From an uncultured Micromonosporaceae bacterium (GTDB taxonomy: Bacteria > Actinomycetota > Actinomycetes > Mycobacteriales > Micromonosporaceae), in NCBI GenBank assembly GCA_966211315.1, contig CBIHNN010000013.1:19225-83224 (forward strand): DNA of 64,000 nt, read 5' to 3'. Both the position numbers and the translations under genes were made by a program. Below are positions 27,181-43,400 of this stretch, piece by piece (within the stretch, counting starts at the first letter, position 1; the number at the start of each line of letters is the position of its first letter). A model generated the notes under the pieces. It was not told the DNA's origin and did no database searches. It saw only the letters and a list, made by a program, of their open reading frames with translations.

Positions 27181-28698
27181 ATGCGTTCACTGCGTTCGGC
27201 CGTCATATCGACCACGTTGGTCGTCGTCCCGGTCGCGGTCCTCGCCGCCGTCGCCGGCCCGGCAGCTGCCCATACACACCCCACGAACGTGGAGCTCATC
27301 GCGCCGGCCGTGGTGCAGGTGGAGACCTACGTCGAGGTGAACATCTCGCTCATCGAACACAACCGTAAGGGCGCGCACATCGGGCTGCTCCAGCAGCGGT
27401 ACTCACCGAAGCTGGCGTCCGGCAGTGGTTTCGCCGTCGACCCCGCCGGGGGTGTGGTCACGAGCCGGGAGGTCATCGACGTCGATCTTCGACGGGCGGA
27501 GATCTACGCGGTCAACCAGATATTCCATGAGCGCTACGGCGATGTCGCCCCGCTGCCCGCCGACCCGTTCGCGATGCAGTCGATCAACGGTGGTGACCCG
27601 GCCGACCAGATTCCCGGGCGCCTGCAGCAGTGCTACCGGCCCAACGCGACAGACATGACGGGCGGCTGCGTGGTCTTCAGCCGGCGGGTGATCAAGGTCC
27701 TGCCCTTCGTCACGTCCCAGCAGCAGTTCGGCAATCTACCGGCGACCGTGGTCACACCGGACGAGGGCCAGCCGGGTGACGTGGTGGTACTCAAGGTGGG
27801 AGCGAGCAGCATGCCGACGGCACGCCTCGCTACCGGGGTTCAGAGTGCCCCCTTCACGGTGCTGGGCTTCAGCACCACGCCGTCGAACGAGCAGTCGCTG
27901 CGCAAACTGGAGGGCCACTTCATCAAGGACGGGTCCACCGAGCTCAAGCGCGACCCCGAGTACAACGGTCTCGTCACCGGGATGGGGACCGGCCTCGCCG
28001 GTGGTCCGGTCGTGGGGGAGCGGGGCGACGTTGTCGGGTTCCTGATCCGGCGACCCGGCGCCGCGCCCACCGACCTGACCCTGGTGGAACCGGCGGCGAT
28101 CCGGGCGGCCCTTGACACCGCCAAGATCACTGCGCATTCCGGGCCGACCGACGGCGCGTACGAGAGCGCCCTGCACAACTACAAGAACCAGCTCTACGCC
28201 GCCGCGATCCCCAGCCTGTCGCAGACTCTGAAGCTCTACCCGGGGCACGCACTGGCGACCGAGGCGCTGGCACAGGCGAATCGCAAGCGGGGCACGGCCG
28301 ACGACCTGACCGGCCGGCCGGCGCAGGCCACACCCGGCCAAGGCGTCGACAAGCCCGACTTCCGGCGTACGGTGCTGCCGCTCGTGGTCGCCGGAGCCGC
28401 CCTGATCCTTCTGGCAGTGGCGATCGTGCTGCTGCTGCGCCGGCGGCGGTCCACCACGGCGGCGCCTGCGGACCCGGCGGGCGGCCCCCCGCCGGTCGTG
28501 GTGCCCGCGCCGCGACAGCCGTCGTCCGCCAGCCCGGGCCTCGGCGCGATGCGGCGGCAGGCGACGGTGCTGCGTCCGCGGACGGTGGGCGCTGGGCCGT
28601 CCAGCCCGCCGCCGCCCGCCACCGAGTGCCCGGTGTGCGGCGCCCCCGTCGTAGCGGCGCAGACGTTCTGCGGCGAGTGCGGGCATCGGCTGGGATAG
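27181..28698 (+). CDS. membrane-anchored trypsin-fold (S1C-like) pseudoprotease with TPR-like segment, TM helix, Pro-rich tail and C-terminal double zinc ribbon
   Basis: Signal peptide VVVPVAVLAAVAGPAAA. GSGFAVDPAGGVVTSREVI carries Arg where the catalytic His is expected. DVVVLKV has the Asp. GTGLAGGPVV carries Ala where the Ser is expected. TM VLPLVVAGAALILLAVAIVLLLRRRR, then CPVCGAPVVAAQTFCGECGHRL. Confidence 0.75.
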   Translation: MRSLRSAVISTTLVVVPVAVLAAVAGPAAAHTHPTNVELIAPAVVQVETYVEVNISLIEHNRKGAHIGLLQQRYSPKLASGSGFAVDPAGGVVTSREVIDVDLRRAEIYAVNQIFHERYGDVAPLPADPFAMQSINGGDPADQIPGRLQQCYRPNATDMTGGCVVFSRRVIKVLPFVTSQQQFGNLPATVVTPDEGQPGDVVVLKVGASSMPTARLATGVQSAPFTVLGFSTTPSNEQSLRKLEGHFIKDGSTELKRDPEYNGLVTGMGTGLAGGPVVGERGDVVGFLIRRPGAAPTDLTLVEPAAIRAALDTAKITAHSGPTDGAYESALHNYKNQLYAAAIPSLSQTLKLYPGHALATEALAQANRKRGTADDLTGRPAQATPGQGVDKPDFRRTVLPLVVAGAALILLAVAIVLLLRRRRSTTAAPADPAGGPPPVVVPAPRQPSSASPGLGAMRRQATVLRPRTVGAGPSSPPPPATECPVCGAPVVAAQTFCGECGHRLG

Positions 28699-28765: not shown

Positions 28766-30412
28766 ATGACCGGGCCCACCAAGCCCTTTCAGCTGGACGG
28801 CACGGAACTGGCCGGCTATCGCATCGAGACGCTGATCGGCCGCGGCGGGATGGCGTACGTCTACCGCGCCGCCGACAAGCGCCTCGGCCGTACGGTGGCC
28901 CTCAAGGTGCTGGCGCCGGACCTGGCCACGGACGCGGAGTTCCGGCGCCGGTTCCTGCGCGAGTCACGCCTGGCGGCGTCCATCGACCACCCCAACGTCA
29001 TCCCGATCTACGACGCCGGTGAGGCCGACGGGGTGTTGTACATCGCCATGCGCTACGTCGAGGGCAGTGACCTGAAGGCACTGCTGATCCGCGAGCAGAA
29101 GCTCGACGTCCACCGCGCGGTCGACATCTTCTCGCAGGTGGCGGACGCCCTCGACGCGGCACACGCACACGGCCTCGTGCACCGCGACGTCAAACCTGCC
29201 AACATCCTCATCTCCCCGGGCACGCTGTCACAGGGGCACGAACACGTCTACCTGAGCGACTTCGGAGTCACCAAGCGGGCGTCGTCGAAGTCCGGTGTCA
29301 CCGCCGCCGGCGTCATCGTCGGCACGATGGACTACCTGGCGCCGGAGCAGATCAGCGGCAAGACGGTGAGCGCCCGGACGGACGTGTACGCACTCGGCTG
29401 CGTGATCTACCAGGCGCTGACGGGGTCCGTCCCTTTCGTCCGCGACGACGACGCGGCGCTGCTCTGGGCGCACCTCGTCGAGACGCTCCCGCCCATCTCC
29501 CAGCATCGTCCCGACCTGCCGCCGGCGGTGCAGGACGTGCTGTTGAAGGCGACGGCGAAGGACCCCGAGGACCGGTACGCCAGCTGCGGCGAGCTCCTTG
29601 AGCAGCTGACCATGTCGCTGAGCGAGTACCGTCCGGCGGCGCGGGAGGACACCGCCGGACGGTACGCGCCCCCGGCCGCGATGCCGGCCGATCGGGTGCC
29701 CAGGTCACGTACCGGCGTGCCCACCGGTACGGGGCCAGCCGCCACGGGCGGCCGCAGCCTCGCCGCGGTGCCGATGCCGGTGCCGGTGCAACGGTCGCGC
29801 CGGGGGTGGATCTGGGCGCTGGTCGCGAGCGCGGTCGTGGCGGTGCTCGCGCTGGCCGGCTTCTTCCTCCTGCGCCCGCACGGCCCCGGTACGGCGCACT
29901 TCGCCGCGAACGACGTGGTGCCGGTGTCCTTCGACTACCCGGCGGACTGGCGGCAGGCACCGGAGGGCAACAACCTGGTGCTCTCGCCGCACGCCGACGC
30001 GTTCCTCGACCTGTTCACCCGACCGGACCAGCCGGACCCGTGGGGCAAGATCGGCAAGGTGTTGCGCGAGGACCGCGACGGGTCGATCGGGATGTACACC
30101 TTTTTCAACCAGATCGATTACAGCAATGGGGATCCGCGGCAGACGCTGCTGATCTACCTGCCGACCGGCGCGCGCTTCACGCCCGGGCAGGGCGAGGCGG
30201 CCCTCGGCAACGTCATGGCGATCCACCTGAGCGGGGTGGTCAGCGACCCGCGCGACAGTGCGACACAGCTGCGTTTCGAGTGCTACATCGCCCGCAGCGG
30301 CCCGCAGCAGCAGCGCAACATCCACATGATCTTGTTTTCTGATGCGAAGTCGTTCAACAGTCACCAGGCGACGTTCGACAGCATCGTGAGATCGGCTGTT
30401 CTGCCGGCGTAG
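28766..30412 (+). CDS. Hanks-type Ser/Thr protein kinase with one TM helix and a roughly 180-aa extracytoplasmic C-terminal domain
   Basis: GRGGMAYVY, VALKVL, HRDVKPANIL, SDFG, LAPEQ. TM WIWALVASAVVAVLALAGFFLL. Confidence 0.9.
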   Translation: MTGPTKPFQLDGTELAGYRIETLIGRGGMAYVYRAADKRLGRTVALKVLAPDLATDAEFRRRFLRESRLAASIDHPNVIPIYDAGEADGVLYIAMRYVEGSDLKALLIREQKLDVHRAVDIFSQVADALDAAHAHGLVHRDVKPANILISPGTLSQGHEHVYLSDFGVTKRASSKSGVTAAGVIVGTMDYLAPEQISGKTVSARTDVYALGCVIYQALTGSVPFVRDDDAALLWAHLVETLPPISQHRPDLPPAVQDVLLKATAKDPEDRYASCGELLEQLTMSLSEYRPAAREDTAGRYAPPAAMPADRVPRSRTGVPTGTGPAATGGRSLAAVPMPVPVQRSRRGWIWALVASAVVAVLALAGFFLLRPHGPGTAHFAANDVVPVSFDYPADWRQAPEGNNLVLSPHADAFLDLFTRPDQPDPWGKIGKVLREDRDGSIGMYTFFNQIDYSNGDPRQTLLIYLPTGARFTPGQGEAALGNVMAIHLSGVVSDPRDSATQLRFECYIARSGPQQQRNIHMILFSDAKSFNSHQATFDSIVRSAVLPA

Positions 30413-30476: not shown

Positions 30477-31136
30477 GTGGTGGAGTGGCCGATGTTGGAC
30501 TCGCTCGACCCGGAGGAACGGCGCCGATTGCTGAGCGTCTCCCGGCGGCGGCGCTTCGGCCGCAACGAGGTCGTCTTCCACGAGGGCGACCCGGCGAACT
30601 CGCTGCACCTGGTGGCGTCCGGACACGTCAGCGTCCGGGTGGCGACACCGGACGGTAACAGCGTGACCCTCGCGATCATCGGTCCCGGTCAGACGTTCGG
30701 GGAGCTGGCCCTGCTCGGCAGGCAGGCCCGGCGGGCCGCGACGATCACCGCTCTGGAGGGCTGCGAGACCTTGAGCCTGCAGAAGGAACGCTTCGACGAG
30801 CTGCGCCTCGGCCACCCGCGGATGGACCGGCTGCTGGCCGAGATCCTCGCCGACGAGGTGCGGCGGCTCGACGGCCGCCTGCTGGAATTCCTGTACCTGC
30901 CCGCGGACAAGCGGGTGCTGCGCCGCCTGGTGTCCCTGGCCAGGATGTACAGCGACGGTGGGCAGGAGACGGTGACGGTGCCGCTGACGCAGGACGTGAT
31001 CGCCGGCATGGCCGGGACCTCACGACCGACGACGAACCAGGCGCTTCGTGCCGTCGAGGAGGCGGGCGTCATCGCCATCGGACGGTCGAAGATCCATGTC
31101 ACGGATCTTCCGGGGCTGATGCGCCGCGCCCGCTGA
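30477..31136 (+). CDS. Crp/Fnr family transcriptional regulator (cNMP-binding domain plus HTH)
   Basis: Phosphate-binding cassette FGELALLGRQARRAATITAL. C-terminal HTH TQDVIAGMAGTSRPTTNQALRAVEEAG. The start may instead be ATG 30492. Confidence 0.9.
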   Translation: MVEWPMLDSLDPEERRRLLSVSRRRRFGRNEVVFHEGDPANSLHLVASGHVSVRVATPDGNSVTLAIIGPGQTFGELALLGRQARRAATITALEGCETLSLQKERFDELRLGHPRMDRLLAEILADEVRRLDGRLLEFLYLPADKRVLRRLVSLARMYSDGGQETVTVPLTQDVIAGMAGTSRPTTNQALRAVEEAGVIAIGRSKIHVTDLPGLMRRAR

Positions 31137-31817
31137 TCAGTCGTTCGCAGGCGCGCCGACCAGGCCGCAGGCGACCCGGTCACCGGAGTTGCCGCCCTGC
31201 TGCGTCGCCTTGATCGCCTCCGGGCTGTTGCCGGTGTACTCCTGCGCGGCCGTGCCCACCGGGACCCGGCCGAGGTTGTCCGGGTTGGCGTGCAGCACCA
31301 CGGCTCGGCCGGTGAGCTCCGCGCCGGACAGCCGGTCGGTGCGGAACTCCAGGGTGCCGCGTCCGTCGGCCCCCACGTAGATGCTCGGCAGATCACCGTT
31401 GTGCTCCGCGTGCTGGTGACCGCCATGGTCCAGGTGCGCGTCCGCGGAGACGAACCAGCTCCTCGACGGCTGGCCCGGCTGGGCCACGCAACCGTTGCCG
31501 TTGGTCGCATCGTCGTTGGCGTGCAGGTGGAACCCGTGGAACGCGGCCCTGCCGGCCATGCCCGCGGGCAGGGCGACGCGGGCGCGGACCACGACCCCCG
31601 GTCGCGCGTCGAAGAAGTCGACCCGGCCGACGGCACGTCCGTCGGCCAGGCTGAGGGTGGCCGAGCCGATCGCGCGTTCACCCGTGCGCCGGGCGATGAG
31701 CAAGGCGACCGCGGCTCCCGCGGAGCCGAGGAGAACAACGGTGACCAGCACCACGAGCAGGACGCTCCTCGAACGCCGATGCGCCGATGGGGGCGGGGTC
31801 AGGATCTGCTGCGCCAT
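31137..31817 (-). CDS. sodC: Cu/Zn superoxide dismutase family protein, membrane-anchored
   Basis: HGFHLHAN, HLDHGGHQHAEHNGDLP, AVVLHANPDN, and GNSGDRVACG match the Cu and Zn ligand contexts. N-terminal TM VLLVVLVTVVLLGSAGAAVALLI. Confidence 0.9.
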   Translation of the reverse strand: MAQQILTPPPSAHRRSRSVLLVVLVTVVLLGSAGAAVALLIARRTGERAIGSATLSLADGRAVGRVDFFDARPGVVVRARVALPAGMAGRAAFHGFHLHANDDATNGNGCVAQPGQPSRSWFVSADAHLDHGGHQHAEHNGDLPSIYVGADGRGTLEFRTDRLSGAELTGRAVVLHANPDNLGRVPVGTAAQEYTGNSPEAIKATQQGGNSGDRVACGLVGAPAND

Positions 31818-32028
31818 GGTTCACTTCCTCGGGACCGGGACCGGGGCCGGGCCGGGGCCTGAAGCCCACCGATTGCCTGTGGGATCAGCATCACGGCGGG
31901 CCCGCCGGGCGTCTGTTAGCGCGACGACACGGCATCGCAGAACGGGCGTACCGCATCGGACTGTCGGTCGGCCGTGCGTGCCGATGCATGCGATCGACGC
32001 GGGCCGGACCAGGTCCTAATCTATGTGA

Positions 32029-35000
32029 ATGCCAAGCTGCTCCTCGTGCGGCGCGGACAACCCCGACCGTGCGCGGTTCTGTATGGACTGCGGCACTCCC
32101 GTCACCGCGGACCAGGTCCGCGAGGTACGCAAGACCGTCACCGTCGTCTTCTCCGACGTCGTGGGCTCCACCGGACTGGGCGAACGGCTCGACCCGGAGG
32201 AGCTGCGCAGGGTCATGACCCGCTACTACGAGCTGGCCAATGCGGTGCTCACCCGGCACGGGGGCCGGGTCGGCAAGTTCATCGGCGACGCCGTGATGGC
32301 GGTGTTCGGCGTACCCGTGGTGCACGAGGACGACGCCCTGCGCGCCGTGCGAGCCGCCGCGGAGCTGCACGCCGGCCTCGCCGAACGCAACGCACAACTG
32401 GAGCGGGACTACGGCGTCGAGCTGCACCTGCGGACCGGCGTGAACACCGGCGAGATCGTGCTGGCCGAGACCTACGGCGGCCAGGACATCACCATCGGCG
32501 ACGTCGTCAACGTCGCCGCCCGCCTGGAGCAGCTGGCGGACCCCGGCGAGATCCTGCTGGGCGACGTCACCTACCGCCTGGTGCGCGACGCCGTGACCGC
32601 GGAGATGCTGGCGCCGCTGACGGTCAAGGGCAAGGGTGTGCCGGTGGAGGCGTGGCGGCTGCTGGCGGTCAAGCCGGACGCGGAGGGCCACGCCCGGCTG
32701 CTGGACGCCCCGCTGATCGGCCGGGAACACGAACTGGGGCTGCTGACGCGCGCGTTCGACCGCACGATCAGCGAGCGGACGTCGCATCTCGTCACGCTGC
32801 TCGGCACGGCCGGCGCCGGTAAGTCCCGCATGGTGCAGGAGTTGCTCACCTGGTCCGGCGGCCGGGCCCAGGTGCTGCGGGGACGCTGCCCCGACTACGG
32901 CGAGGGGATGACGTACCGGCCGCTCACCGAGGTCGTACGCCAGGCCGCCGGTATCAGTGCCACGGCTGAACCGGAGGAGGCGCGGCGTCGGATCGCCGCT
33001 CTCTTCCCGGCGGACGAACCCGGCTCCATCGTGGACGATCTCGCCGCCCTCGTCGGTGACGTCGCGACCGGAGCCGCGGTCGAGGACCTTCAGGTCGCAC
33101 TGCACCGGCTGCTCGGTGCCCTTGCCGCGAGCCGGCCGCTCATCGTCGTGCTGGACGACCTGCAGTGGGCCGAGGCCGCCCTGTTGGACCTGCTGGAACG
33201 CCTGACCGAGTGGCTCCGCGACATCCCGGTCCTGTTATGCTGCCTGGCCCGCCCGGACCTGCTGGAGATCCGGCCGGGCTGGGGCGGCGGGCGGGTCAAC
33301 GCCACGACACTGATGCTGGAACCGCTGACGCCCGAGGAGAGTGCAGCGCTGCTGGACAACCTGCTCGAACACGTCCGCGGGGCGGACCTGGCCCGGCGAC
33401 GGGTCGTCGAGGCGGCCGGCGGCAACCCGCTCTACCTCCAGGAGCTCGTCGGGATGCTGATCGAGGACGGCCTGCTCGCCCGCGGTCCGGACGGCTGGGT
33501 GGCCACCACGGACCTGTCGAAGCTGGACATTCCGCCGAGCATCGCGGCCCTGCTCGCCGCCCGGCTCGACGCGCTTCCTGCCGGCGAACGAGCCGTCCTG
33601 GAGCGAGCCAGCGTGATCGGGCCGGTGTTCCACCGGGTCGCCGTCATCGCGCTCACCCCGCCGGAGGCGCGTGGGCAGGTCATCACGTACCTGCTGAATC
33701 TGGTCCGTAAAGAGCTGATCCGGCCGGAGCCCTCCGCGCTGCTCGGCGAGAGCGCCCTGCACTTTCGCCACGTGCTGCTACGCGACGCGGCGTACCGGTC
33801 ACTGTCCAAGCGCGAGCGCGCCGAGCTGCACGAACGGCACGCCGACTGGCTGGAGGCGAAGCACGCCGAACGCGTCGCGGAGCCCGACGAGGTCATCGGG
33901 TACCACCTCGAACAGGCCTGTCGCTACCGCACCGGGTTCGGGCCGGTGGACCCCAGCACCGCCCACCTCGCCGAGCGGGCGGCCGCGCACCTGATCGGCT
34001 CGGGCAGCCGCGCCTTCGGACGCCGGGACATGCCCGGCGCGGCCAGCCTGCTCGGGCGCGGCGTGGCCCTGCTGCCGGCCGAGAATCCCGAACGCCTGGC
34101 CGCGCTGCCGGATCTCGCCGCCGCCCTGGTGGAGATGGGGGAGTTCGGCCGCGCCGAGGCCATCCTCGTCGAGGCGGTCGTCGCCGCCGACGAACGCGGC
34201 GACGAAGGGCTGCGCGCCGCCGCCGTACGGGTGCGGTCGGTGCTGCGCCTGCTCGTCGGGCCGCCACCGGATGCGGCGCCACCGGGCTCACCCGCGGGGA
34301 GCGCCCCCGACAGCCAGGACACCGCCGCCCTCGCCGCTGGCTGGACACTCGTACGGGACGTCCGCTGGCTGCCCCGCTCGGCCGCCGCGGCGGCGCCGAC
34401 GGCCGGCGCGGAGCGCTCCAGCGCCACGACCACCGCCGTCGGCGACTTCACCATGCTGGCGGTGCTCGGGCCGACGCCGGTGCGGGCCGCGATCGAGCGG
34501 TACACCGAGTACCTGCGCCAGCCGCAGCTCAGCAACACGTTCACGGTCCGGGTGCTGGGCGCCCTCGCCGGGCTGACCGCCATGGACGGAAACGTCGACG
34601 ACGCCCGGCGCCACCTCGACCAGGCGATGTCGATCCTCGGCCAGCTCGGCCTGCGGGTACGAGCCGCCGCGCTCTCCTACCTCGCAGGTCTCGTCGACCT
34701 GCTGGCGGACCAGCCCGCCGCGGCGGAGGAACGGCTGAGCCAGGCCTGTCTCGACTGCGAGCGGATGGGCGAGCGGTACGTGCTCGGCGCCCTGCTGTCG
34801 CTGCGGGCACAGGCCAGCTACGCCCTGGGCCGGTACGTCGAGGCCGTCCAGCTGGGCGAGGCGGCCGAACAGAGCGGGTTCGGCGACGACATCGTGGCGC
34901 AGGTGACGGCCAGCGGCGCCCGGGCCAAGGCGCTGGCGCGACTGGACTGCGGTGACGAGGCGGAGCCGCTGGTCCGGGAAGCCGCCGCCGCGGCAGCCGG

Positions 35001-35202
35001 GACGGGCCTCATCAACCTGGCCGCCGACGCCCTGCTGGACCTCGCCGACGTGCACGAGGCGATCGGCGACGGCGAGGCCGCCGCGCGGGCTGCCCGGGAG
35101 GCACTGGAGCTGTACCTGCGCAAGGGCAATGTGGTGTCGGCGCGGCGCACCCGCACGATGCTGGAGCGGCTGCGCCCGGCCGAACCCGGCACCGGGTCCT
35201 GA
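32029..35202 (+). CDS. zinc ribbon / class III adenylate-guanylate cyclase / STAND (AAA) NTPase / TPR multidomain protein
   Basis: N-terminus CSSCGADNPDRARFCMDCG. Cyclase motifs VTVVFSDVVGST, GKFIGDAVMAVFG, QDITIGDVVNVAARLE. P-loop LLGTAGAGKSRM and Walker B LIVVLDDLQWA. The C-terminal roughly 450 aa are helical repeats. Confidence 0.9.
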   Translation: MPSCSSCGADNPDRARFCMDCGTPVTADQVREVRKTVTVVFSDVVGSTGLGERLDPEELRRVMTRYYELANAVLTRHGGRVGKFIGDAVMAVFGVPVVHEDDALRAVRAAAELHAGLAERNAQLERDYGVELHLRTGVNTGEIVLAETYGGQDITIGDVVNVAARLEQLADPGEILLGDVTYRLVRDAVTAEMLAPLTVKGKGVPVEAWRLLAVKPDAEGHARLLDAPLIGREHELGLLTRAFDRTISERTSHLVTLLGTAGAGKSRMVQELLTWSGGRAQVLRGRCPDYGEGMTYRPLTEVVRQAAGISATAEPEEARRRIAALFPADEPGSIVDDLAALVGDVATGAAVEDLQVALHRLLGALAASRPLIVVLDDLQWAEAALLDLLERLTEWLRDIPVLLCCLARPDLLEIRPGWGGGRVNATTLMLEPLTPEESAALLDNLLEHVRGADLARRRVVEAAGGNPLYLQELVGMLIEDGLLARGPDGWVATTDLSKLDIPPSIAALLAARLDALPAGERAVLERASVIGPVFHRVAVIALTPPEARGQVITYLLNLVRKELIRPEPSALLGESALHFRHVLLRDAAYRSLSKRERAELHERHADWLEAKHAERVAEPDEVIGYHLEQACRYRTGFGPVDPSTAHLAERAAAHLIGSGSRAFGRRDMPGAASLLGRGVALLPAENPERLAALPDLAAALVEMGEFGRAEAILVEAVVAADERGDEGLRAAAVRVRSVLRLLVGPPPDAAPPGSPAGSAPDSQDTAALAAGWTLVRDVRWLPRSAAAAAPTAGAERSSATTTAVGDFTMLAVLGPTPVRAAIERYTEYLRQPQLSNTFTVRVLGALAGLTAMDGNVDDARRHLDQAMSILGQLGLRVRAAALSYLAGLVDLLADQPAAAEERLSQACLDCERMGERYVLGALLSLRAQASYALGRYVEAVQLGEAAEQSGFGDDIVAQVTASGARAKALARLDCGDEAEPLVREAAAAAAGTGLINLAADALLDLADVHEAIGDGEAAARAAREALELYLRKGNVVSARRTRTMLERLRPAEPGTGS

Positions 35203-35228
35203 TCCGCCGGTCACGGAAGGAGGCTGCG

Positions 35229-38200
35229 ATGGCGCAGCGCGTCGAGATCCGCGAGCTGGGCCGGCCGGCCCGGGTGGTGACCATCGCGGAGACCGTGGAG
35301 GTGGGACGTGACTGCGCCGGAATCGTGGTGTCCGATCCGGAGGTCTCGCGCCGCCACCTGACGCTGTCGTACGCCGACGAGACCCTGTCCGTCCTGGACC
35401 TGGGCAGCAGCAACGGCACGAGCGTCAACGGCGTACCGGTCACCGCCCAGACGCCGCTGCACGCGGGTGACGTGGTGGGGCTCGGCGATGCGCAGATCGT
35501 CGTGCTGCCACCCCGGGACGGGCCGGTACCGGTGGACGCTCCCACCGAGGCCATGGCGGGCCCGGACGGTGCGGTGCCGCCGGCGCCGCCGGAACCCGCC
35601 CGGACGCCGCCGCCGGCCCGTCCGGCGCTCGACGAGCTCGCCGTCCGGGACACCGACGCGGCAGTGATCCGGTACCGCCGGGGATCAGCCGGCGAACGCG
35701 CCGCCTCCGGGTACGCGTCCGCGGTGCGCCGTGCCCGCCGCAGGCTCGCCGGTCTGGGATCCGAACCCTGGGGCGTACGCCCGCAGATCTGCCTCGTCGA
35801 CCCGTTCCCCAGTCCGGACGACCCGGACGACCTGCTGGCCGCCGGCACCGTCGTGGACCCGGTCCACGGCGAGATCTGGATGGTGGTGACCGCCGACTCG
35901 CCCCCGGAGTCTCCGGAGCGCCCGTTGGCGCTGTTCTTCGGTGCCGGGCTGCCCGCCGCCGACGACGTGGCCGCCCTGGTGGAGGGCTACGGCCTGCACC
36001 TGGCCCGGTTGCCGTCGCCGGATGCGTTCCTGCGCGGTTCGGACCTGCCACCCCTGGCGGAGGCCGACGGTCAGCTGCGCGTCCTCATGGCGGTGTCGTT
36101 CGTCCGTCACCTGCTGGCTCGCGGCGGCGAGCCCGCGTTTCGGCAGCTGCTGGCCACCGCCCAGCCCGGGGCCGTCGACGCGGCGGCGGAGCAGGTCTAC
36201 GGGCTGCCTCTGTCGGCTCTCGAGCCGCGGTGGCGCGCGGGCCTCACGACCCCGCCGCCGCAGGCCCGCACCGCCGACTTCCTGCGGTTGACCGGTGCCT
36301 ACCTGCGCCGGCACGGGTGGTGGCTGACGCAGCTGGTGGTCTGCACGGTGGCCACCGTGGCGTTGGTGGTGCTCCTGCCGCTGGCGCTGCGCAGACTGAT
36401 CGACCAGGTCCTCCCGGCCCGGGACCTCGTTGCCGCGGTGCGGATCGTCGGGGTGCTGGCGGGCGCCCTCGTCGTCGCCGGGATGGCCGAGATCCGCCGG
36501 GTCCAGCTGTGGGCGAGGCTGAGCGTGACGTTCCTGCAGCAGCTGCGCGCGGACATGTTCGCGAAGCTGCAGACGCTCTCGGCGAGCTGGTACGCGGCCC
36601 CCGGCCGCGGCACGGACGTGCTGTCGCGCCTGCTGGCGGACGCCGCCATTCTCCAGTCCGGCCTGCACGCCGTACGCGATGCCGTCTCGCAGGGTGTCGT
36701 CCTGGTGGCCGCGACGGCTGTTCTCGTGGTGCTCAGTGTGCCCCTCGCGGCGACGGTGCTGCTGGGCGCCCTGCTGCTCGGCGCGCTCGGGCGTACGCTG
36801 GCCCGCCGCGCCGCCCGGCACGCCCACGATGCGCAGGAGCAGGTCACCTCCGTGGTGTCGGTGGCCGCCGAAAGCTACGCCGCGCACGCCCTCGTGCAGG
36901 CCTACGGGCTCGAAGCCGACCAGCGTGGCCGGTTCCAGCGGGTTCTCGACCACAACGCCGTCCGGCAGCGTCGCGCGCTGGTCTCCGAGAGCCTGCCCGG
37001 CGTCTGCGTCGATGGCACGGCCACCGCGTTGCGCCTCGCCGTGCTGGCGGTGGGCGCCTGGCTGCTGGTCACCGACCGGGTCACGGTGGGCGCCCTGGTG
37101 GCGGTGCTCGTGATCGTCGACCAGGTGGTCCGGCCGGTGTCCGCCCTCGCCATGCTCGGTGGACGACTCGACGCGACGAGGGGCGCCGTGGTCCGGGTCA
37201 CCGACATCCTCGCTGCCCAGAACGAGATCGCCGAAGCACCCGAGGCCGTCGACCTGCCCCGGCCGCGGCGGGAGATCCGGTTGTCCGGGATCGGGCTGGA
37301 AGCCGGACCGGACCGGCGCCCGCTGGCCGACGTGGACGCCGCCATCCGGGTGGGTAGCCGGGTGGCGTTCGTGGGGGCGCCCGGTACCGCGATCTCGTCG
37401 GTGGTGCAGCTGCTCCTGCGGTTCTGCGACCCGACGACCGGCGCTGTGCGCATCGACGGACAGGATCTGCGACACGTCACCGTCTCCTCGCTGCGCGGCC
37501 AGATCGGGGCCGTCCTGCGCGAGGCCGTGCTCGTCGACGCGACCGTGGCCGAGAACATCGCGCTGGGCGGCCCCGGCGCGGGTCACGTGGCGATCGAGGC
37601 CGCGGCCCGCGCCGCGGAGGCGCACCCGTTCGTCCTCACCCTCCCGCACGGCTACGACACCCGGGTGGGGGAGCGCGGCGTACGGCTCAGTGAGGCCCAG
37701 CGGCGCCGGATCGCACTGGCCCGGGCTCTGCTGCGGGACCCGGCCGTACTGCTGCTCGACGACGTCACCGCCGACCTGGACGTGCGCTCCGAACGGCTGT
37801 TCACCGCGACGCTCGCGCGGGTGGGCCGCGGCCGTACCGTCATCACCGCCACCCACCGTCTGACCACGGTGGTCGACTACGACCAGATCTTCCTGATGGA
37901 CGGCGGCCGGATCGTGGAGCGGGGCGGGCACCACGGGCTGCTCCTGGCCGCAGGCCGGTACGCCGAGCTGTGGGCCGAGCAGGCCCACACCGGCCCGGTG
38001 GAGCCGACCCCGTTCGACGTCGCCGCCGCCCTCACCCGGATCCCGCTCTTCGCCCGGCTCGACGGGCGCGGGCTCGACCGGGTCGCACGCTGCCTGCACG
38101 AGCAGCGGGTCGACCGGGACGAGACGGTACGCAGCGACGACGGCCGGTTGCTCCTGATCCGGCGGGGCAGGGCGCTGGTGCTCGGCCCGGACCCGGCCGG

Positions 38201-38471
38201 CCGGCTCACCACCGTCGCCCGGCTGGGTCCCGGGCAGGCGTTCGGGCTGGGCGGTGTGATGGGTGAGCGGACGGGCACCCTGCTGCGCGCGCTGCGACCT
38301 CTGGAGCTGCTGGTGCTGAGGTCGGAGGCGCTCGCCGCGCTCGCGCTGGAACTGCCCGCGGTGGCCGCCGCGCTGGACACCGCCCCGGGCCGGGCGGTGC
38401 CGGCGGGCGGCGAGCGGCTGTCCCAGCTGGCACTGCGGCCTCCCGTGTCGGGGGATCCCCTGCCCGGCTGA
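35229..38471 (+). CDS. FHA domain / unassigned domain / ABC-exporter transmembrane domain / degenerate ABC nucleotide-binding domain / cNMP-binding domain fusion protein
   Basis: FHA: VEVGRD...SRRHLTL...GSSNGTSVNG. Six TM helices of the type I exporter kind. The NBD reads GAPGTAIS (Walker A), VLREAVL (Q-loop), LSEAQ (signature), LLLDDVT (Walker B) and ATHRL (H-loop). The C-terminal cNMP domain reads IPLFARLD...GQAFGLGGVMGERTGTLLRA. It lies 26 nt downstream of the cyclase gene. Confidence 0.85.
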   Translation: MAQRVEIRELGRPARVVTIAETVEVGRDCAGIVVSDPEVSRRHLTLSYADETLSVLDLGSSNGTSVNGVPVTAQTPLHAGDVVGLGDAQIVVLPPRDGPVPVDAPTEAMAGPDGAVPPAPPEPARTPPPARPALDELAVRDTDAAVIRYRRGSAGERAASGYASAVRRARRRLAGLGSEPWGVRPQICLVDPFPSPDDPDDLLAAGTVVDPVHGEIWMVVTADSPPESPERPLALFFGAGLPAADDVAALVEGYGLHLARLPSPDAFLRGSDLPPLAEADGQLRVLMAVSFVRHLLARGGEPAFRQLLATAQPGAVDAAAEQVYGLPLSALEPRWRAGLTTPPPQARTADFLRLTGAYLRRHGWWLTQLVVCTVATVALVVLLPLALRRLIDQVLPARDLVAAVRIVGVLAGALVVAGMAEIRRVQLWARLSVTFLQQLRADMFAKLQTLSASWYAAPGRGTDVLSRLLADAAILQSGLHAVRDAVSQGVVLVAATAVLVVLSVPLAATVLLGALLLGALGRTLARRAARHAHDAQEQVTSVVSVAAESYAAHALVQAYGLEADQRGRFQRVLDHNAVRQRRALVSESLPGVCVDGTATALRLAVLAVGAWLLVTDRVTVGALVAVLVIVDQVVRPVSALAMLGGRLDATRGAVVRVTDILAAQNEIAEAPEAVDLPRPRREIRLSGIGLEAGPDRRPLADVDAAIRVGSRVAFVGAPGTAISSVVQLLLRFCDPTTGAVRIDGQDLRHVTVSSLRGQIGAVLREAVLVDATVAENIALGGPGAGHVAIEAAARAAEAHPFVLTLPHGYDTRVGERGVRLSEAQRRRIALARALLRDPAVLLLDDVTADLDVRSERLFTATLARVGRGRTVITATHRLTTVVDYDQIFLMDGGRIVERGGHHGLLLAAGRYAELWAEQAHTGPVEPTPFDVAAALTRIPLFARLDGRGLDRVARCLHEQRVDRDETVRSDDGRLLLIRRGRALVLGPDPAGRLTTVARLGPGQAFGLGGVMGERTGTLLRALRPLELLVLRSEALAALALELPAVAAALDTAPGRAVPAGGERLSQLALRPPVSGDPLPG

Positions 38472-38587: not shown

Positions 38588-38956
38588 GTGATGGTCACCT
38601 ACACCATCCAGGACCCGTCCCGCCGCGAGGTTCGCAACCGTCCGCCGATCGTCGTGTCCGGCGCTGAGACGACCGACGCCCTGACGGCAGCCCGGGCCGA
38701 GGCGCTCTTCACCAGCGACGTGTCGGTGAGTTCGACCCTCGACGGGGACGAGTTCAAGGATGCCATCCGGCAGGCGCTGGTGCGCCACGGCGGCGTCCGT
38801 GGATGCGCGGCCGAGGTGGCAGCGGCGTACGGCGATCACCCGGAGACCGCGGCGCCGCGCATGCGCTGGGCCCGGCAGATCGTGCAGTCGGTGTACGGCA
38901 AGCAGGTCGCGCACCGCTGGGCGACTCACCGCGTACTGCTCTCCTCGGTTCAGTAG
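38588..38956 (+). CDS. hypothetical small cytoplasmic protein
   Basis: AGGAGG lies 6 nt upstream of GTG-ATG. GC3 is high. 122 aa with no TM segment (…ALFTSDVSVSS…GVRGCAAEVAAAYGDHPETAAPRMRWARQIV…). I could not name a family. Confidence 0.65.
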   Translation: MMVTYTIQDPSRREVRNRPPIVVSGAETTDALTAARAEALFTSDVSVSSTLDGDEFKDAIRQALVRHGGVRGCAAEVAAAYGDHPETAAPRMRWARQIVQSVYGKQVAHRWATHRVLLSSVQ

Positions 38957-40155: not shown

Positions 40156-40168
40156 GGAGTGTCGATCG

Positions 40169-41821: not shown

Positions 41822-41833
41822 AGGGCAAACGTC

Positions 41834-42652
41834 ATGGTCCAACCGGCGCATGCGCCATCCACTCCGCACCAGCCGTCCACTCCTGAGCAGTCGGCCATTC
41901 CTCACCAGCCGGCCGCGCCGTCCCCCGCACCGGCCACACCGGCACCCGGCCGGCCGCGCGGGACCTTCCGGTCATGGTGGTCCCGCTTCCTCGTCCTCAT
42001 CATGGTGGCCGGAGCCGGCTTCGTCTTCCTGCTCATCAGCAGCAACCGGGCGGCGCAGGCCGCCCGCGTCGACCTGGGCACCGTCACACTGACCACGCAG
42101 TCCATCCCGGTCGAGACGGCGCGGTCCGGGCAGATCACCGCTGTCTCGGTCGCCGGGCAACAGACGGTCAAGAAGGGCGACAAGCTCGGCACGATCGAGG
42201 TCACCACGACCAAGGCCGACGGCGAGCCCGTCGTGAAGACACTCACTCTGACCGCGCCGCACGACGGCATCGTCGTCGACGAACCGGTCACCGTCGGCAG
42301 CACGCTCCAGCCGGGACAGCCCTTCGTCGTGCTGTACGACCCGACGAGGTTGGAGTTCGTCAGCGACATCCCGCTGAAGAACGTGCCCACGCTCGCCCGG
42401 GGCATGATCGCCAGCCTGAAGGCGAACGGGCTCGACCGCACCGTCAGGGCCTCCGTCCAGCGGGTCGTGCCGCGGGTCCCCGGGGCCAACCCCGCCGCCG
42501 ATGACGTCAGTCCGGATGCGCTGCGACTGGTGCTGGCTCCCGTGACCCCGCAGGAGGTGCGTGGGCTCGTACCCGGCCTGCGGTTCAAGGGCACCGTCGA
42601 CACCCGTACGGGGGAGAGCGGCGCCCCGAAGCTCGTCGCCATGCCGGCGTAG
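41834..42652 (+). CDS. HlyD/membrane-fusion-protein-like protein with one N-terminal TM helix
   Basis: Pro-rich N-terminus, then TM FLVLIMVAGAGFVFLLI. Lipoyl-like hairpin halves GQITAVSVAGQQTVKKGDKLGTI ... LTAPHDGIVVDEPVTVGSTLQPGQPFVVLYDP. Lies 12 nt after the GT2 stop. Confidence 0.7.
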   Translation: MVQPAHAPSTPHQPSTPEQSAIPHQPAAPSPAPATPAPGRPRGTFRSWWSRFLVLIMVAGAGFVFLLISSNRAAQAARVDLGTVTLTTQSIPVETARSGQITAVSVAGQQTVKKGDKLGTIEVTTTKADGEPVVKTLTLTAPHDGIVVDEPVTVGSTLQPGQPFVVLYDPTRLEFVSDIPLKNVPTLARGMIASLKANGLDRTVRASVQRVVPRVPGANPAADDVSPDALRLVLAPVTPQEVRGLVPGLRFKGTVDTRTGESGAPKLVAMPA

Positions 42653-43389: not shown

Positions 43390-43400
43390 CTGCCCTCGCC

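What the first reader, a model, noticed from the sequence alone, without database searches (positions are those of the whole stretch)
32029..38471. Candidate two-gene signalling/effector module: STAND-regulated cyclase plus an FHA / dead-ABC / cNMP-binding membrane protein
Gene 1 fuses four parts:
- a double zinc ribbon;
- a class III cyclase with both metal Asp residues and the Lys (GKFIGD) / Asp (QDITIGD) pair that normally specifies ATP;
- a P-loop STAND NTPase;
- about 450 aa of TPR-like sensor repeats.

Gene 2 starts 26 nt later and fuses five parts:
- a canonical phosphothreonine-binding FHA domain;
- a roughly 230-aa unassigned domain;
- a six-helix ABC-exporter membrane domain;
- an NBD that has lost its catalytic motifs;
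- a C-terminal cyclic-nucleotide-binding domain.

The logic matches cyclase-based signalling systems such as Pycsar: a sensor-controlled nucleotide cyclase next to a membrane protein that reads the cyclic nucleotide. The receiver architecture, an ABC exporter scaffold that probably cannot hydrolyse ATP and has an added FHA input, is one I have not seen described. FHA-regulated ABC transporters do exist (M. tuberculosis Rv1747 with PknF). A more conservative reading is therefore a cAMP- and phospho-gated exporter or channel involved in development or envelope homeostasis.
Basis: partly seen in the sequence, partly recalled or inferred. Interest (0 to 1): 0.8.

Follow-up and report, generated by a model that had tools for sequence, protein, structure and literature searches.

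The report
Dead ABC transporter in kinase/cAMP cassette
The two genes and their domains are real, but they belong to a larger conserved kinase/cAMP signalling cassette of some actinomycetes, and the membrane protein is an uncharacterised kind of ABC exporter whose ATP motor has decayed in this lineage and whose "cyclic-nucleotide" domain lacks the usual nucleotide-binding residues.

Summary
Both ORFs and nearly all domain calls are confirmed. Gene 1 is a zinc ribbon, class III cyclase, AAA_16 STAND NTPase and TPR fusion. It belongs to a very large actinobacterial family and is ordinary in itself. Gene 2 is FHA, then the previously unassigned domain, then a 6-TM ABC exporter core, an NBD and a CNB-fold domain.

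- **Unassigned domain:** it is a Peptidase_MA_2/zincin fold in which HExxH is replaced by RPLAL, so it is a pseudo-peptidase.
- **Dead NBD:** this is real but lineage-specific. 61 of 67 family members keep canonical motifs; only the window clade (6 clusters) lost them. In that clade dN/dS of the TMD and NBD is about three times higher, while the FHA, zincin-like and CNB domains stay constrained.
- **CNB domain:** the fold is correct, but the phosphate-binding-cassette Glu and Arg are missing in every member, so cNMP binding is doubtful.
- **Synteny:** the cyclase/ABC pairing holds in 6 of 6 loci of one sub-lineage, always with a Ser/Thr kinase, a canonical Crp and a trypsin-like membrane protein. 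Most of the family instead sits next to a GAF protein and an S8 protease.

There is no support for a Pycsar-like defence system. The likeliest reading is a phospho-dependent membrane scaffold or pseudo-transporter inside a kinase/cAMP-Crp cassette. This is a new variant of a known kind and of moderate interest.

The parts
32029..35202 (+). Gene 1: Zn-ribbon, class III cyclase, AAA_16 STAND NTPase and TPR-like sensor, 1057 aa
   Evidence: Pfam. Orthologue alignment A4 shows the following invariant: C4/C7/C18/C21; D43, K83 and D87 (metal and purine residues); N161 and R165 (transition state); Walker A GxxGxGKS; Walker B DD. Best PDB match is the Cya2 cyclase 2w01, E=1e-25.
32038..32103 (+). Single zinc ribbon (aa 4-25)
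   Evidence: Zn_Ribbon_1, 29 bits. DZR matches only its first half, positions 1-23 of 45. The upstream ATG start is conserved in L118 and L119.
32131..32640 (+). Class III nucleotide cyclase catalytic domain (aa 35-204)
   Evidence: Guanylate_cyc, 70.6 bits. Catalytic residues are conserved.
32710..33213 (+). AAA_16 STAND P-loop NTPase (aa 228-395)
   Evidence: AAA_16, 86 bits. Walker A GTAGAGKS and Walker B VVLDD.
33946..35199 (+). C-terminal helical, TPR-like sensor region (about aa 640-1057)
   Evidence: TPR_12 at aa 841-906, 35 bits. Homologues carry several TPR Pfam hits.
35229..38471 (+). Gene 2: FHA, zincin-like pseudo-peptidase, 6-TM ABC exporter core, degenerate NBD and CNB-fold domain, 1080 aa
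35298..35486 (+). FHA domain (aa 24-86) with canonical GR...SRRH...NGT residues
   Evidence: FHA, 53 bits. G26, R27, S40, R41 and H43 are invariant or nearly so in family alignment A1.
35616..36263 (+). Zincin (Peptidase_MA_2)-like pseudo-peptidase domain (aa 130-345). HExxH is replaced by R231-P-L-A-L235; the third-ligand Glu is kept as E252.
   Evidence: AF2 pLDDT 91. All top Foldseek hits are MA-clan metallopeptidases, prob 0.9-1.0, TM 0.41-0.53. 14 of 15 members give weak Peptidase_MA_2 hits. hhalign to HExxH-bearing Peptidase_MA_2 proteins gives prob 98.6%, E=9e-16. Lowest dN/dS in the protein, 0.13.
36291..37208 (+). Type IV (ABCB/MsbA-like) exporter transmembrane domain, six helices (aa 355-660)
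   Evidence: ABC_membrane, 86.7 bits. MsbA_rel, 329 bits. dN/dS is 0.42-0.48, against 0.12-0.17 in the live clade.
37266..37973 (+). Degenerate nucleotide-binding domain (aa 680-915)
   Evidence: Motif table. 61 of 67 family members are canonical and 6 are degenerate. dN/dS is 0.38-0.42, against 0.13-0.17 in the live clade.
38031..38378 (+). CNB-fold domain with a non-canonical phosphate-binding cassette (aa 935-1050)
   Evidence: AF2 pLDDT 88.8. Foldseek hits CRP, GlxR, MloK1 and PKG CNB domains at E=1e-10 to 1e-8. The cassette reads FGLGGVMGERTGT, with no FGE, and the Arg column is not conserved.
27181..28698 (+). Cassette member: signal peptide, extracellular trypsin-like domain (GxSGGP Ser is Ala), TM helix and cytoplasmic C-terminal Zn ribbon
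   Evidence: Syntenic in L118, L082 and L083, with C-terminal fragments at the contig ends of L086 and L119.
28766..30412 (+). Cassette member: receptor Ser/Thr protein kinase (kinase domain, TM helix, extracellular domain)
   Evidence: Pkinase, 170 bits. Sequence. 67-77% identical in the syntenic loci L082, L083 and L086. The kinase is fused to the gene 2 architecture in P0146.
30477..31136 (+). Cassette member: Crp-family regulator with canonical cAMP-binding cassette FGELALL...RRAAT
   Evidence: cNMP_binding 88.7 bits plus HTH_Crp_2. Sequence. It is the most conserved protein of the cassette, at 70-84%.
31137..31817 (-). Cu/Zn superoxide dismutase on the opposite strand, splitting the cassette into two transcription units in the window, L118, L119 and L082 (absent in L083 and L086)
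31880..31895 (+). Conserved Crp-like half-palindrome upstream of gene 1 (TGGGATCAGCATCACG)
   Evidence: Conserved in the window, L118 and L082. By itself it is not statistically significant: the window has 8 such matches against 14.6 expected.
38588..38956 (+). 122-aa ORF of unknown function just downstream of gene 2, conserved in L082 (58% identity)

Best explanation
**The cassette (shown).** The two genes are the distal half of a conserved actinobacterial signalling cassette. Its order is: trypsin-like membrane protein with a Zn ribbon, receptor Ser/Thr kinase, Crp, SodC on the opposite strand in five of the six loci, cyclase-STAND-TPR, then FHA/zincin-like/ABC/CNB.

**Gene 1.**
- It is an ordinary member of a very large Zn-ribbon/class III cyclase/AAA_16/TPR family.
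- All catalytic residues are intact.
- Inferred: it makes cAMP when its STAND/TPR module is switched on.
- Inferred: the most parsimonious reader of that cAMP is the canonical Crp in the same cassette.

**Gene 2.**
- It belongs to an uncharacterised family of type IV ABC half-transporters.
- The family carries an N-terminal FHA domain, a cytoplasmic zincin-fold pseudo-peptidase domain and a C-terminal CNB-fold domain.
- Ancestrally these are ATP-driven exporters under Ser/Thr-kinase control. The pseudo-peptidase probably acts as a substrate- or partner-docking domain, in the way the C39-like domain does in HlyB-type exporters (inferred by analogy).

**This lineage.**
- The ATPase motifs have eroded step by step.
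- Both the TMD and the NBD evolve about three times faster than in relatives with a live NBD.
- The FHA, zincin-like and CNB-fold domains remain under strong constraint.
- Inferred: the protein no longer pumps. It works as a membrane-anchored, phosphothreonine-dependent scaffold or receptor (a pseudo-transporter). Its FHA domain reads the cassette kinase, and its zincin-like and CNB-fold domains bind partners or a ligand that is probably not a canonical cNMP.
For: **Domain calls and motifs:**

**The dead NBD is derived and clade-specific**
- 61 of 67 full-length family members keep Walker A Lys and LSGGQ. Six do not.
- Erosion is graded. P0006 has lost only Walker A and the signature. P0004 and P0005 have also lost the Q-loop Gln and the H-loop His. 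The window, P0002 and P0003 have also lost the Walker B Glu.

**Constraint by domain**
- Identity between dead-clade pairs: zincin 76, FHA 67, CNB 65, NBD 62, TMD 56.
- Identity between live-clade pairs: NBD 73, TMD 67, zincin 65, CNB 54, FHA 46.
- dN/dS in the dead clade: zincin 0.13-0.27, NBD 0.38-0.42, TMD 0.42-0.48, linker about 0.4-0.9 (window comparisons; 1.6 for L118 against L119).
- dN/dS in live pairs: TMD 0.12-0.17, NBD 0.13-0.17.

**Zincin-like fold with no HExxH:**

**Link to the kinase**
- The kinase lies in the cassette in 6 of 6 type A loci (L118 and L119 by gene call only).
- A kinase is near or fused to the S8 protease in type B loci.
- P0146 is a Pkinase-FHA-zincin-ABC-CNB fusion.

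**The ABC core appears dispensable:** P0208 is Pkinase-FHA-zincin-CNB with no TMD or NBD.

**Who reads cAMP**
- Crp has a canonical cassette and is the best-conserved cassette protein.
- The gene 2 CNB domain lacks the Glu and Arg.

**Paralogous cyclase-STAND genes** also sit next to Crp regulators.
Against: - No experiment supports any of this.
- The loss of transport is inferred from motifs and substitution rates only.
- dN/dS of the TMD and NBD (about 0.4) is still well below 1, so the ABC core keeps some function. That could be gated passive conduction, or pairing with a catalytic partner encoded elsewhere.
- NG86 dN/dS in a 72% GC genome is rough, and the number of independent comparisons is small.
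- Two sampled paralogous cyclases sit near membrane proteins with CNB domains (MFS-CNB and M50-CNB). 'Cyclase feeds a CNB-tagged membrane protein' is therefore a recurring theme and could still apply here through a non-canonical binding mode.
- P0208 is a single metagenomic protein and could be an assembly artefact.
Confidence: 0.5

Rival explanations
1. Gene 2 is still a conduit, either a channel or a facilitated exporter. It is gated by phosphorylation through the FHA domain and by the cyclase product binding the C-terminal CNB-fold domain. The dead NBDs serve only as a dimerisation and gating module, as in CFTR or SUR.
For: - Gene 1 and gene 2 are adjacent in 6 of 6 type A loci.
- The CNB fold is intact and under purifying selection (dN/dS 0.3-0.37).
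- The TMD keeps six helices and dN/dS below 1.
- Paralogous cyclases sit near CNB-tagged MFS and M50 membrane proteins.
- The sister family, zincin-ABC-CNB, has canonical CNB domains.
Against: - The phosphate-binding-cassette Glu and Arg are missing in all 67 members, including those without a neighbouring cyclase.
- The HetC CNB domain binds ppGpp, not cAMP (PMC10986499), which shows that the fold does not predict the ligand.
- The TMD is the fastest-evolving folded domain in the dead clade, only 40% identical to live relatives. That is unexpected for a conserved pore.
Confidence: 0.25
2. Gene 2 is one half of a heterodimeric ABC exporter. Its catalytic partner is encoded elsewhere in the genome, so transport is still ATP-driven.
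For: Heterodimeric type IV exporters with one degenerate site are common (PMC7756269). The TMD and NBD remain under some constraint.
Against: - Walker A Lys and the signature motif are both lost. In a heterodimer, both composite sites would therefore be impaired. Known degenerate sites keep ATP binding (PMC7756269).
- No second type IV half-transporter gene lies in the window cassette or in any syntenic locus.
Confidence: 0.1
3. Gene 2 is a decaying relic, an exporter on its way to becoming a pseudogene, with no current function.
For: Progressive erosion of the catalytic motifs and raised dN/dS in the TMD and NBD.
Against: - A 3.2-kb ORF is intact in six lineages diverged to 52% identity.
- GC3 is typical of expressed genes and the RBS is strong.
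- dN/dS is 0.13 in the zincin-like domain and about 0.4 in the TMD and NBD, against about 0.8-1.6 in the linker.
Confidence: 0.07
4. The pair is a Pycsar-like anti-phage system. The cyclase makes a cyclic pyrimidine on infection, and this activates a membrane-disrupting effector.
For: The gene 1 cyclase domain hits PycC models in PADLOC (best 68 bits). The architecture, a cyclase next to a membrane protein with a CNB fold, looks superficially similar.
Against: - The PycC hits are no better than generic Guanylate_cyc (70.6 bits).
- The purine-specifying Lys is conserved.
- The gene 2 CNB domain does not hit any Pycsar effector model and lacks the cNMP-contacting residues.
- The cassette is vertically conserved with stable flanking genes and host-like GC.
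- Most of the family has no cyclase partner at all.
Confidence: 0.03

Closest known systems
Rv1747 / PknF of Mycobacterium tuberculosis (FHA-regulated ABC exporter; PMC3138270, PMC8339232)
   Same: An ABC membrane protein has an N-terminal FHA domain, and a Ser/Thr kinase is encoded in the same locus. The logic is phospho-dependent regulation.
   Different: Rv1747 has two FHA domains and, from my own knowledge, an ABCG-like NBD-then-TMD order with a live ATPase. Gene 2 has one FHA domain, a type IV TMD-then-NBD core, an extra zincin-like domain, a CNB-fold domain and a dead NBD. They are analogous, not orthologous.
HetC of Nostoc PCC 7120 and other peptidase-containing ABC transporters (PCATs) (PMC10986499)
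   Same: A type IV ABC exporter core carries a cytoplasmic peptidase-type domain ahead of the TMD plus a CNB-fold accessory domain. The HetC CNB domain does not bind cAMP; it binds ppGpp.
   Different: HetC has an active C39 cysteine peptidase and an active ATPase, and its CNB domain is N-terminal. Gene 2 has a zincin-fold domain without HExxH, a dead ATPase, a C-terminal CNB domain and an added FHA domain.
C39-like domain (CLD) of HlyB-type type I secretion ABC transporters (from my own knowledge, not checked here)
   Same: A catalytically inactive peptidase-fold domain is fused N-terminally to an ABC exporter and is thought to dock the substrate.
   Different: The fold is different (papain-like C39 against gluzincin/Peptidase_MA_2). 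No substrate is known for gene 2.
Rv0386 / Rv1358 / Rv2488c-type multidomain class III adenylyl cyclases of mycobacteria (PMC2447327 lists them; the architecture is from my own knowledge)
   Same: A class III cyclase is followed by a STAND/AAA P-loop NTPase and TPR repeats.
   Different: Gene 1 has an N-terminal Zn ribbon and lacks the C-terminal LuxR-type HTH. It keeps the purine-specifying Lys, where (from memory) Rv0386 has Gln/Asn.
Degenerate nucleotide-binding sites of heterodimeric type I/IV ABC exporters, CFTR and SUR (PMC7756269)
   Same: NBD catalytic motifs are lost while the fold is kept, and the NBD takes on a regulatory or structural role.
   Different: In those proteins only one of the two composite sites is degenerate and it still binds ATP. 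Here a presumed homodimer has lost Walker A Lys, the Q-loop Gln and the signature motif, so both sites should be dead.
Sister family found here: zincin-like / ABC / canonical CNB proteins (P0207, P0209, P0212, P0214, P0224)
   Same: The same zincin-like pseudo-peptidase, type IV ABC core and C-terminal CNB arrangement.
   Different: There is no FHA domain; P0214 has a double Zn ribbon instead. The NBD is canonical. The CNB domain is canonical (81-94 bits; FGEIALL...PRTA).

Membership tests
Pycsar anti-phage system | Effector carries a canonical cNMP-binding domain that matches Pycsar effector models | tested here: not met
   PADLOC gives no Pycsar effector hit for gene 2. The phosphate-binding-cassette Glu and Arg are absent.
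Pycsar anti-phage system | Cyclase is a PycC-type pyrimidine cyclase | tested here: inconclusive
   PycC hits up to 68 bits, no better than generic Guanylate_cyc at 70.6 bits. The purine-type Lys83 is invariant. The product was not measured.
Pycsar anti-phage system | A self-contained two-gene module with patchy, mobile distribution | tested here: not met
   The pair is embedded in a conserved 5-6 gene cassette with stable flanks in 6 loci. Host-like GC.
Type IV (ABCB/MsbA-like) ABC exporter | Six-helix ABC_membrane domain followed by an ABC_tran NBD fold | tested here: met
   ABC_membrane 86.7 bits, ABC_tran 70.3 bits. MsbA_rel 329 bits, below the equivalog cut-off.
Type IV (ABCB/MsbA-like) ABC exporter | Catalytic motifs: Walker A GxxGxGK[ST], Q-loop Gln, LSGGQ, Walker B Asp-Glu, H-loop His | tested here: not met
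   The window has GAPGTAISS, Arg, LSEAQ and LLLDD; only the His is kept. 61 of 67 relatives are canonical.
FHA-regulated ABC transporter (Rv1747 type) | FHA domain with pThr-binding residues, and a cognate Ser/Thr kinase in the locus | tested here: met
   FHA 53 bits with GR/SRRH/NGT. The kinase lies 4.8 kb upstream in the conserved cassette and is fused in P0146.
FHA-regulated ABC transporter (Rv1747 type) | Two FHA domains and an ABCG-like NBD-TMD order (homology to Rv1747) | tested here: not met
   There is one FHA domain, and the TMD precedes the NBD.
Peptidase-containing ABC transporter (PCAT / HetC) | N-terminal C39 cysteine peptidase with catalytic Cys/His | tested here: not met
   No C39 hit. 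The N-terminal domain has a zincin fold.
Peptidase_MA_2 / gluzincin metallopeptidase | Zincin fold | tested here: met
   All top Foldseek hits are M1, M9 or other MA-clan peptidases. hhalign prob 98.6%, E=9e-16. 14 of 15 members give weak Pfam hits.
Peptidase_MA_2 / gluzincin metallopeptidase | HExxH zinc-binding and catalytic motif | tested here: not met
   HExxH aligns to R231-P-L-A-L235. There is no His between aa 215 and 256. The motif is also absent from the sister family. Only the third-ligand Glu (E252) is kept.
Cyclic-nucleotide-binding domain (PF00027) | Eight-stranded beta-barrel CNB fold | tested here: met
   AF2 pLDDT 88.8. Foldseek hits CRP, GlxR, MloK1 and PKG at E down to 1.8e-10.
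Cyclic-nucleotide-binding domain (PF00027) | Phosphate-binding cassette with the Glu (FGE) and the Arg (R[ST]A) that contact the cNMP | tested here: not met
   The cassette is FGLGGVMGERTGT. 0 of 67 members have FGE and the Arg column is variable. The Pfam score of 22.6 is below the gathering score of 27.5.
Cyclic-nucleotide-binding domain (PF00027) | Binds cAMP or cGMP | not testable with these tools
   Needs ITC or DRaCALA on aa 925-1050.
Class III adenylyl cyclase with STAND module (Rv0386 type) | Two metal Asp, transition-state Asn and Arg, and the purine-specifying Lys | tested here: met
   D43, D87, N161, R165 and K83 are invariant in 4 orthologues.
Class III adenylyl cyclase with STAND module (Rv0386 type) | P-loop STAND NTPase plus TPR repeats | tested here: met
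   AAA_16 86 bits, TPR_12 35 bits. Walker A and B are intact.
Class III adenylyl cyclase with STAND module (Rv0386 type) | C-terminal LuxR-type HTH | tested here: not met
   No HTH hit.

The most novel reading that the evidence does not exclude
One lineage of bacterial ABC half-transporters has been converted into a non-catalytic 'pseudo-transporter' signalling receptor. The ABC core survives only as a membrane anchor and dimerisation scaffold. The working parts are an FHA domain, a zincin-fold pseudo-peptidase and a CNB-fold domain with a non-cNMP ligand. Together they couple a receptor Ser/Thr kinase to a cAMP/Crp circuit. Natural variants bracket the transition: the kinase fused on (P0146) and the ABC core deleted (P0208). 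More broadly, the zincin-like domain would define a new class of peptidase-fold docking domains on ABC exporters, alongside C39 and the C39-like domain.
Probability: 0.35. Interest if true: 0.7.

Novelty: new variant of a known kind. Interest (0 to 1): 0.55.

Why it matters
**What would be new if the reading is right**
- It would be a clear bacterial case of an ABC transporter that lost its motor and was kept for signalling. That is a pseudo-enzyme story, comparable to SUR and CFTR in eukaryotes but going further.
- It would add an undescribed accessory domain to ABC exporters, a zincin-fold pseudo-peptidase.

**Why it can be tested**
The family offers a natural series that makes the role of each domain testable:
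- live ATPase, with a GAF protein and an S8 protease;
- live ATPase, with the cyclase and Crp;
- dead ATPase;
- no ABC core at all.

**A practical caution**
A Pfam 'cNMP_binding' or CNB-fold call next to a cyclase does not by itself show a cyclic-nucleotide receptor.

**What is ordinary**
Gene 1 on its own is ordinary.

Tried and rejected
- **Genome scan swamped.** The genome-contig scan with the full-length alignment used generic ABC patterns (LDEATSALD). The metagenome scan with the zincin-like domain alone worked.
- **Link to the downstream block rejected.** I considered a link between gene 2 and the downstream GH16/GT2/HlyD-like block, as a regulator of a synthase-dependent polysaccharide. 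That block is absent downstream in L082, L083, L086 and L118.
- **Crp-site enrichment not found.** The window has 8 matches against 14.6 expected. Only the one conserved site upstream of gene 1 is kept, as a lead.
- **No PDB sequence match for two domains.** Sequence searches of the PDB gave nothing for the zincin-like domain or the trypsin-like protein. Fold and profile methods were needed.
- **Word-index search with the zincin-like domain.** It returned only fragments of the same family. The exhaustive profile search was the one that revealed the sister family and the fusions.
- **Rfam on the whole window.** No hits.
- **Pseudogene reading rejected.** Rejected on ORF integrity and dN/dS.
- **'Double' zinc ribbon rejected.** There are only four Cys.

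Full report
**1.

The window has about 70% GC, and a GC3 filter picks out both ORFs as real genes: 32029-35202 and 35229-38471, both on the + strand. They are separated by 26 nt. A strong Shine-Dalgarno sequence (GGAAGGAGG) lies 5 nt before the second ATG.

Pfam places the following on gene 1:
- a zinc ribbon (aa 4-25);
- Guanylate_cyc (aa 35-204, 70.6 bits);
- AAA_16 (aa 228-395, 86 bits);
- TPR_12 (aa 841-906).

Pfam places the following on gene 2:
- FHA (aa 24-86);
- ABC_membrane (aa 370-637);
- ABC_tran (aa 700-848);
- a sub-threshold cNMP_binding match (aa 973-1038, 22.6 bits against a gathering score of 27.5).

NCBIfam sees an MsbA-like type IV exporter core at 329 bits, below the equivalog cut-off.

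Walker A is GAPGTAISS, the Q-loop Gln is Arg, the signature is LSEAQ and Walker B is LLLDD. The H-loop His is retained.

Minor corrections:
- The zinc ribbon has four Cys and is single, not double.
- The second cyclase specificity residue cannot be assigned. The loop is 4 residues shorter than in the best PDB match, Cya2 (2w01, E=1e-25). The candidate Asp and Thr are D/E and T/A among orthologues.

**2. Gene 1 is ordinary**

- Its catalytic residues (D43, K83, D87, N161, R165) and the STAND Walker A and B motifs are invariant in four orthologues. It is predicted to be an active purine, probably adenylyl, cyclase.
- The architecture is extremely common. More than 7,900 of the 8,000 scored candidates match at E<=1e-30.
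- About 23 clusters are orthologues at 55% identity or more, including five Cryptosporangium species. Below that lies a very large cloud of paralogues at 45-48% identity across Actinomycetota.
- It resembles the mycobacterial Rv0386-type cyclases but lacks the C-terminal HTH.

**3. Gene 2 belongs to an uncharacterised family, and the unassigned domain is a zincin-fold pseudo-peptidase**

About 80 clusters (90% identity) share the full architecture. They come from Cryptosporangium and from metagenome bins labelled Acidimicrobiia, Solirubrobacteraceae and 'Actinobacteria', and are annotated only as ABC subfamily B.

Evidence on the unassigned domain:
- An AlphaFold2 model of aa 96-352 is confident (pLDDT 91, pTM 0.82).
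- Every top Foldseek hit is an MA-clan metallopeptidase catalytic domain: IRAP and M1 aminopeptidases, ColG and ColH collagenases, AM0627 and lugdulysin. Probabilities are 0.9-1.0 and TM-scores 0.41-0.53, but E-values are marginal.
- 14 of 15 family members give weak Peptidase_MA_2 matches.
- A profile-profile alignment to HExxH-bearing Peptidase_MA_2 proteins gives 98.6% probability and E=9e-16 over 192 columns. One caveat: the templates were picked from weak hits of the same profile, although P0235 independently scores 82.9 bits to Pfam Peptidase_MA_2.
- In that alignment HExxH corresponds to R231-P-L-A-L235. The third zinc ligand aligns to E252 in 'LVEGYG'.
- There is no His between aa 215 and 256.

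The domain is therefore a catalytically dead zincin, cytoplasmic, lying between the FHA domain and the first TM helix. It is the best-conserved part of the protein.

**4. The dead NBD is real, derived and clade-specific**

- In the family alignment the consensus is fully canonical: GPTGAGKSS, VFQD, LSGGQRQR, LLLDEATSALD, THRL.
- 61 of 67 full-length members keep Walker A Lys and LSGGQ. Only the six clusters of the window's clade do not.
- Erosion is graded, as expected once ATPase activity stopped being selected:
  - P0006 has lost only Walker A and the signature;
  - P0004 and P0005 have also lost the Q-loop Gln and the H-loop His;
  - the window, P0002 and P0003 have also lost the Walker B Glu.
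- Identity by domain reverses between the two groups. Live-live pairs run NBD 73, TMD 67, zincin 65, CNB 54, FHA 46. Dead-dead pairs run zincin 76, FHA 67, CNB 65, NBD 62, TMD 56. The TMD is only 40% identical between dead and live proteins.
- Nei-Gojobori dN/dS:

| Domain | Dead clade (window comparisons) | Live pairs |
|---|---|---|
| zincin-like | 0.13-0.27 | 0.11-0.22 |
| CNB | 0.30-0.37 | 0.11-0.25 |
| NBD | 0.38-0.42 | 0.13-0.17 |
| TMD | 0.42-0.48 | 0.12-0.17 |
| Pro-rich linker | 0.4-0.9 (1.6 for L118 against L119) | not comparable |

The ABC core is thus relaxed about three-fold but is not neutral. The accessory domains keep their constraint. The gene is not a pseudogene.

**5. The 'cNMP-binding' domain has the fold but not the binding residues**

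- A confident model of aa 925-1080 (pLDDT 88.8) matches CRP, GlxR, MloK1 and PKG CNB domains at E down to 1.8e-10.
- The phosphate-binding cassette reads FGLGGVMGERTGT.
- The Glu of FGE is Leu or Val in all 67 members.
- The Arg column varies (R, Q, P, E, D), even within the clade that has the cyclase as neighbour.

By contrast, the following all have canonical cassettes:
- the Crp three genes upstream (FGELALL...RRAAT);
- the sister family's CNB domains (81-94 bits; FGEIALL...PRTA);
- the CNB domains of membrane proteins next to paralogous cyclases.

The published precedent is HetC, whose CNB domain binds ppGpp and not cAMP (PMC10986499). It shows that the fold does not fix the ligand.

**6. 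Genomic context**

*Type A: the cassette.* The order is trypsin-like protein, Ser/Thr kinase, Crp, (SodC on the opposite strand), cyclase-STAND, then FHA-ABC. It is found in all six loci of the window's sub-lineage:

| Locus | Identity of gene 2 to the window |
|---|---|
| L081 (the window) | 100% |
| L118 | 81% |
| L119 | 77% |
| L082 | 64% |
| L086 | 52% |
| L083 (Cryptosporangium aurantiacum, live NBD) | 49% |

- Two more pairs are suggested by matching contig lengths (P0020/P0296 and P0014/P0301).
- Crp is the most conserved cassette protein, at 70-84%.

*Type B: the majority of the family.*
- In 21 of 38 examined loci (about 17 non-redundant), plus one divergent arrangement, the FHA-ABC gene is followed directly by a GAF protein and a cytoplasmic S8 protease.
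- That protease has an intact Asp/His/Ser triad and is sometimes fused to a Ser/Thr kinase.
- An ECF sigma factor and a receptor kinase lie upstream.
- There is no cyclase.

The gene 1/gene 2 pairing is therefore lineage-restricted. What recurs across the family is three things: a Ser/Thr kinase, a serine protease or protease-like protein, and a small-molecule sensor (GAF or Crp).

*Other context.*
- The downstream GH16/GT2/HlyD-like block of the window is not conserved with the cassette.
- The window's trypsin-like protein has a signal peptide, an extracellular domain, a TM helix and a cytoplasmic Zn ribbon.
- Its GxSGGP Ser is Ala (window, L118) or Leu (L082), but Ser in Cryptosporangium.

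**7. Wider relatives**

An exhaustive profile search with the zincin-like domain gave 187 hits. Pfam scans then revealed:
- P0146, which is Pkinase-FHA-zincin-ABC-CNB. This fusion ties the kinase to the transporter.
- P0208, which is Pkinase-FHA-zincin-CNB with the TMD and NBD cleanly absent. It is a single metagenomic sequence, so this needs caution.
- A sister family, zincin-ABC-CNB, without FHA and with canonical NBD and CNB domains. One member has an N-terminal double Zn ribbon in place of FHA.

None of these has HExxH.

**8. Defence reading**

- PADLOC gives only generic cyclase-domain hits to PycC, at most 68 bits.
- There is no effector hit for gene 2.
- The cassette is vertically conserved and has host-like GC.

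I reject the Pycsar-like reading.

**9. Interpretation**

*Shown:*
- the architecture;
- the fold of the two formerly uncertain domains;
- the loss of ATPase, zincin and cNMP-contact residues;
- the pattern of constraint by domain;
- the cassette synteny.

*Inferred:*
- In this lineage gene 2 no longer pumps. It acts as a membrane-anchored, phosphothreonine-dependent scaffold or receptor in a Ser/Thr kinase and cAMP-Crp circuit.
- The cyclase's cAMP is read mainly by Crp.

The main rival is a phospho- and ligand-gated conduit whose CNB-fold domain still senses the cyclase product in a non-canonical way. It gains some weight from the recurrence of cyclase-STAND genes next to Crp and CNB-tagged membrane proteins (MFS-CNB in Blastococcus deserti, M50-CNB in L121).

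**10. Verdict**

- The finding is real.
- The 'cNMP receiver' label is doubtful.
- The two-gene module is part of a larger cassette.

What is new is a family-level architecture (FHA / zincin-like pseudo-peptidase / ABC / CNB-fold) and a lineage in which its motor has died while the accessory domains are kept. It is a new variant of a known kind. Interest is moderate (0.55).

Noticed in passing
window 39151-42652: A GH16-like lipoprotein (39151-40155), a cellulose-synthase-like GT2 (40076-41821) and a short HlyD-like protein (41834-42652) form a block that looks like a synthase-dependent glucan system of the Alg8/Alg44 type. It is not conserved downstream of the cassette in L082, L083, L086 or L118.
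   Followed up: partly
window 27181-28698; L118:1961-3493; L082:1837-3399; L083:1846-3669: The cassette's trypsin-like membrane protein has lost the GxSGGP Ser (Ala, Ala, Leu) in the same lineages in which the ABC NBD is dead. It keeps Ser in Cryptosporangium, where the NBD is live. The expected catalytic His is absent in all four. All carry a cytoplasmic C-terminal Zn ribbon, echoing the N-terminal Zn ribbon of gene 1 and of sister-family protein P0214.
   Followed up: partly
window 31818-32028 (site at 31880-31895): The sodC / gene 1 intergenic region contains several blocks conserved in L118 and L082. One is a Crp-like half-palindrome, TG(G/C)GA(T/C)CAGCATCAC. Crp-type motifs are not enriched in the window as a whole.
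   Followed up: partly
window 38588-38956: A 122-aa ORF of unknown function lies directly downstream of gene 2. It is 58% identical in L082, and ORFs of similar size are called at the same position in L118 and L119. It has no Pfam hit.
   Followed up: partly
L087:13294-14818; L084:13274-16103; 19 further loci: In most of the family the FHA-ABC gene is followed, often with overlapping stop and start codons, by a roughly 190-aa GAF protein and a roughly 300-aa S8 protease. The protease has no signal peptide and an intact triad. In L084 the S8 protease is fused to a Ser/Thr kinase. This suggests an intracellular proteolysis and export pathway whose substrate is unknown.
   Followed up: partly
P0146 and P0208 (metagenomic proteins): P0146 fuses a Ser/Thr kinase to the whole FHA-zincin-ABC-CNB architecture. 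P0208 has Pkinase-FHA-zincin-CNB with the entire TMD and NBD missing.
   Followed up: partly
L120:6001-14107 (Blastococcus deserti); L121:1068-9207: Paralogous Zn-ribbon/cyclase/STAND/TPR genes lie next to Crp-family regulators and membrane proteins carrying canonical CNB domains: an MFS-CNB fusion and a Peptidase_M50-CNB fusion. Trypsin_2 proteases are also nearby. This appears to be a recurrent neighbourhood theme in Actinomycetota.
   Followed up: partly
window 42680-43901 (- strand): Two CrcB-like genes flank a DUF190 gene (gene calls from L081). Rfam at gathering threshold finds no fluoride riboswitch, or any other RNA family, anywhere in the 64-kb window.
   Followed up: no
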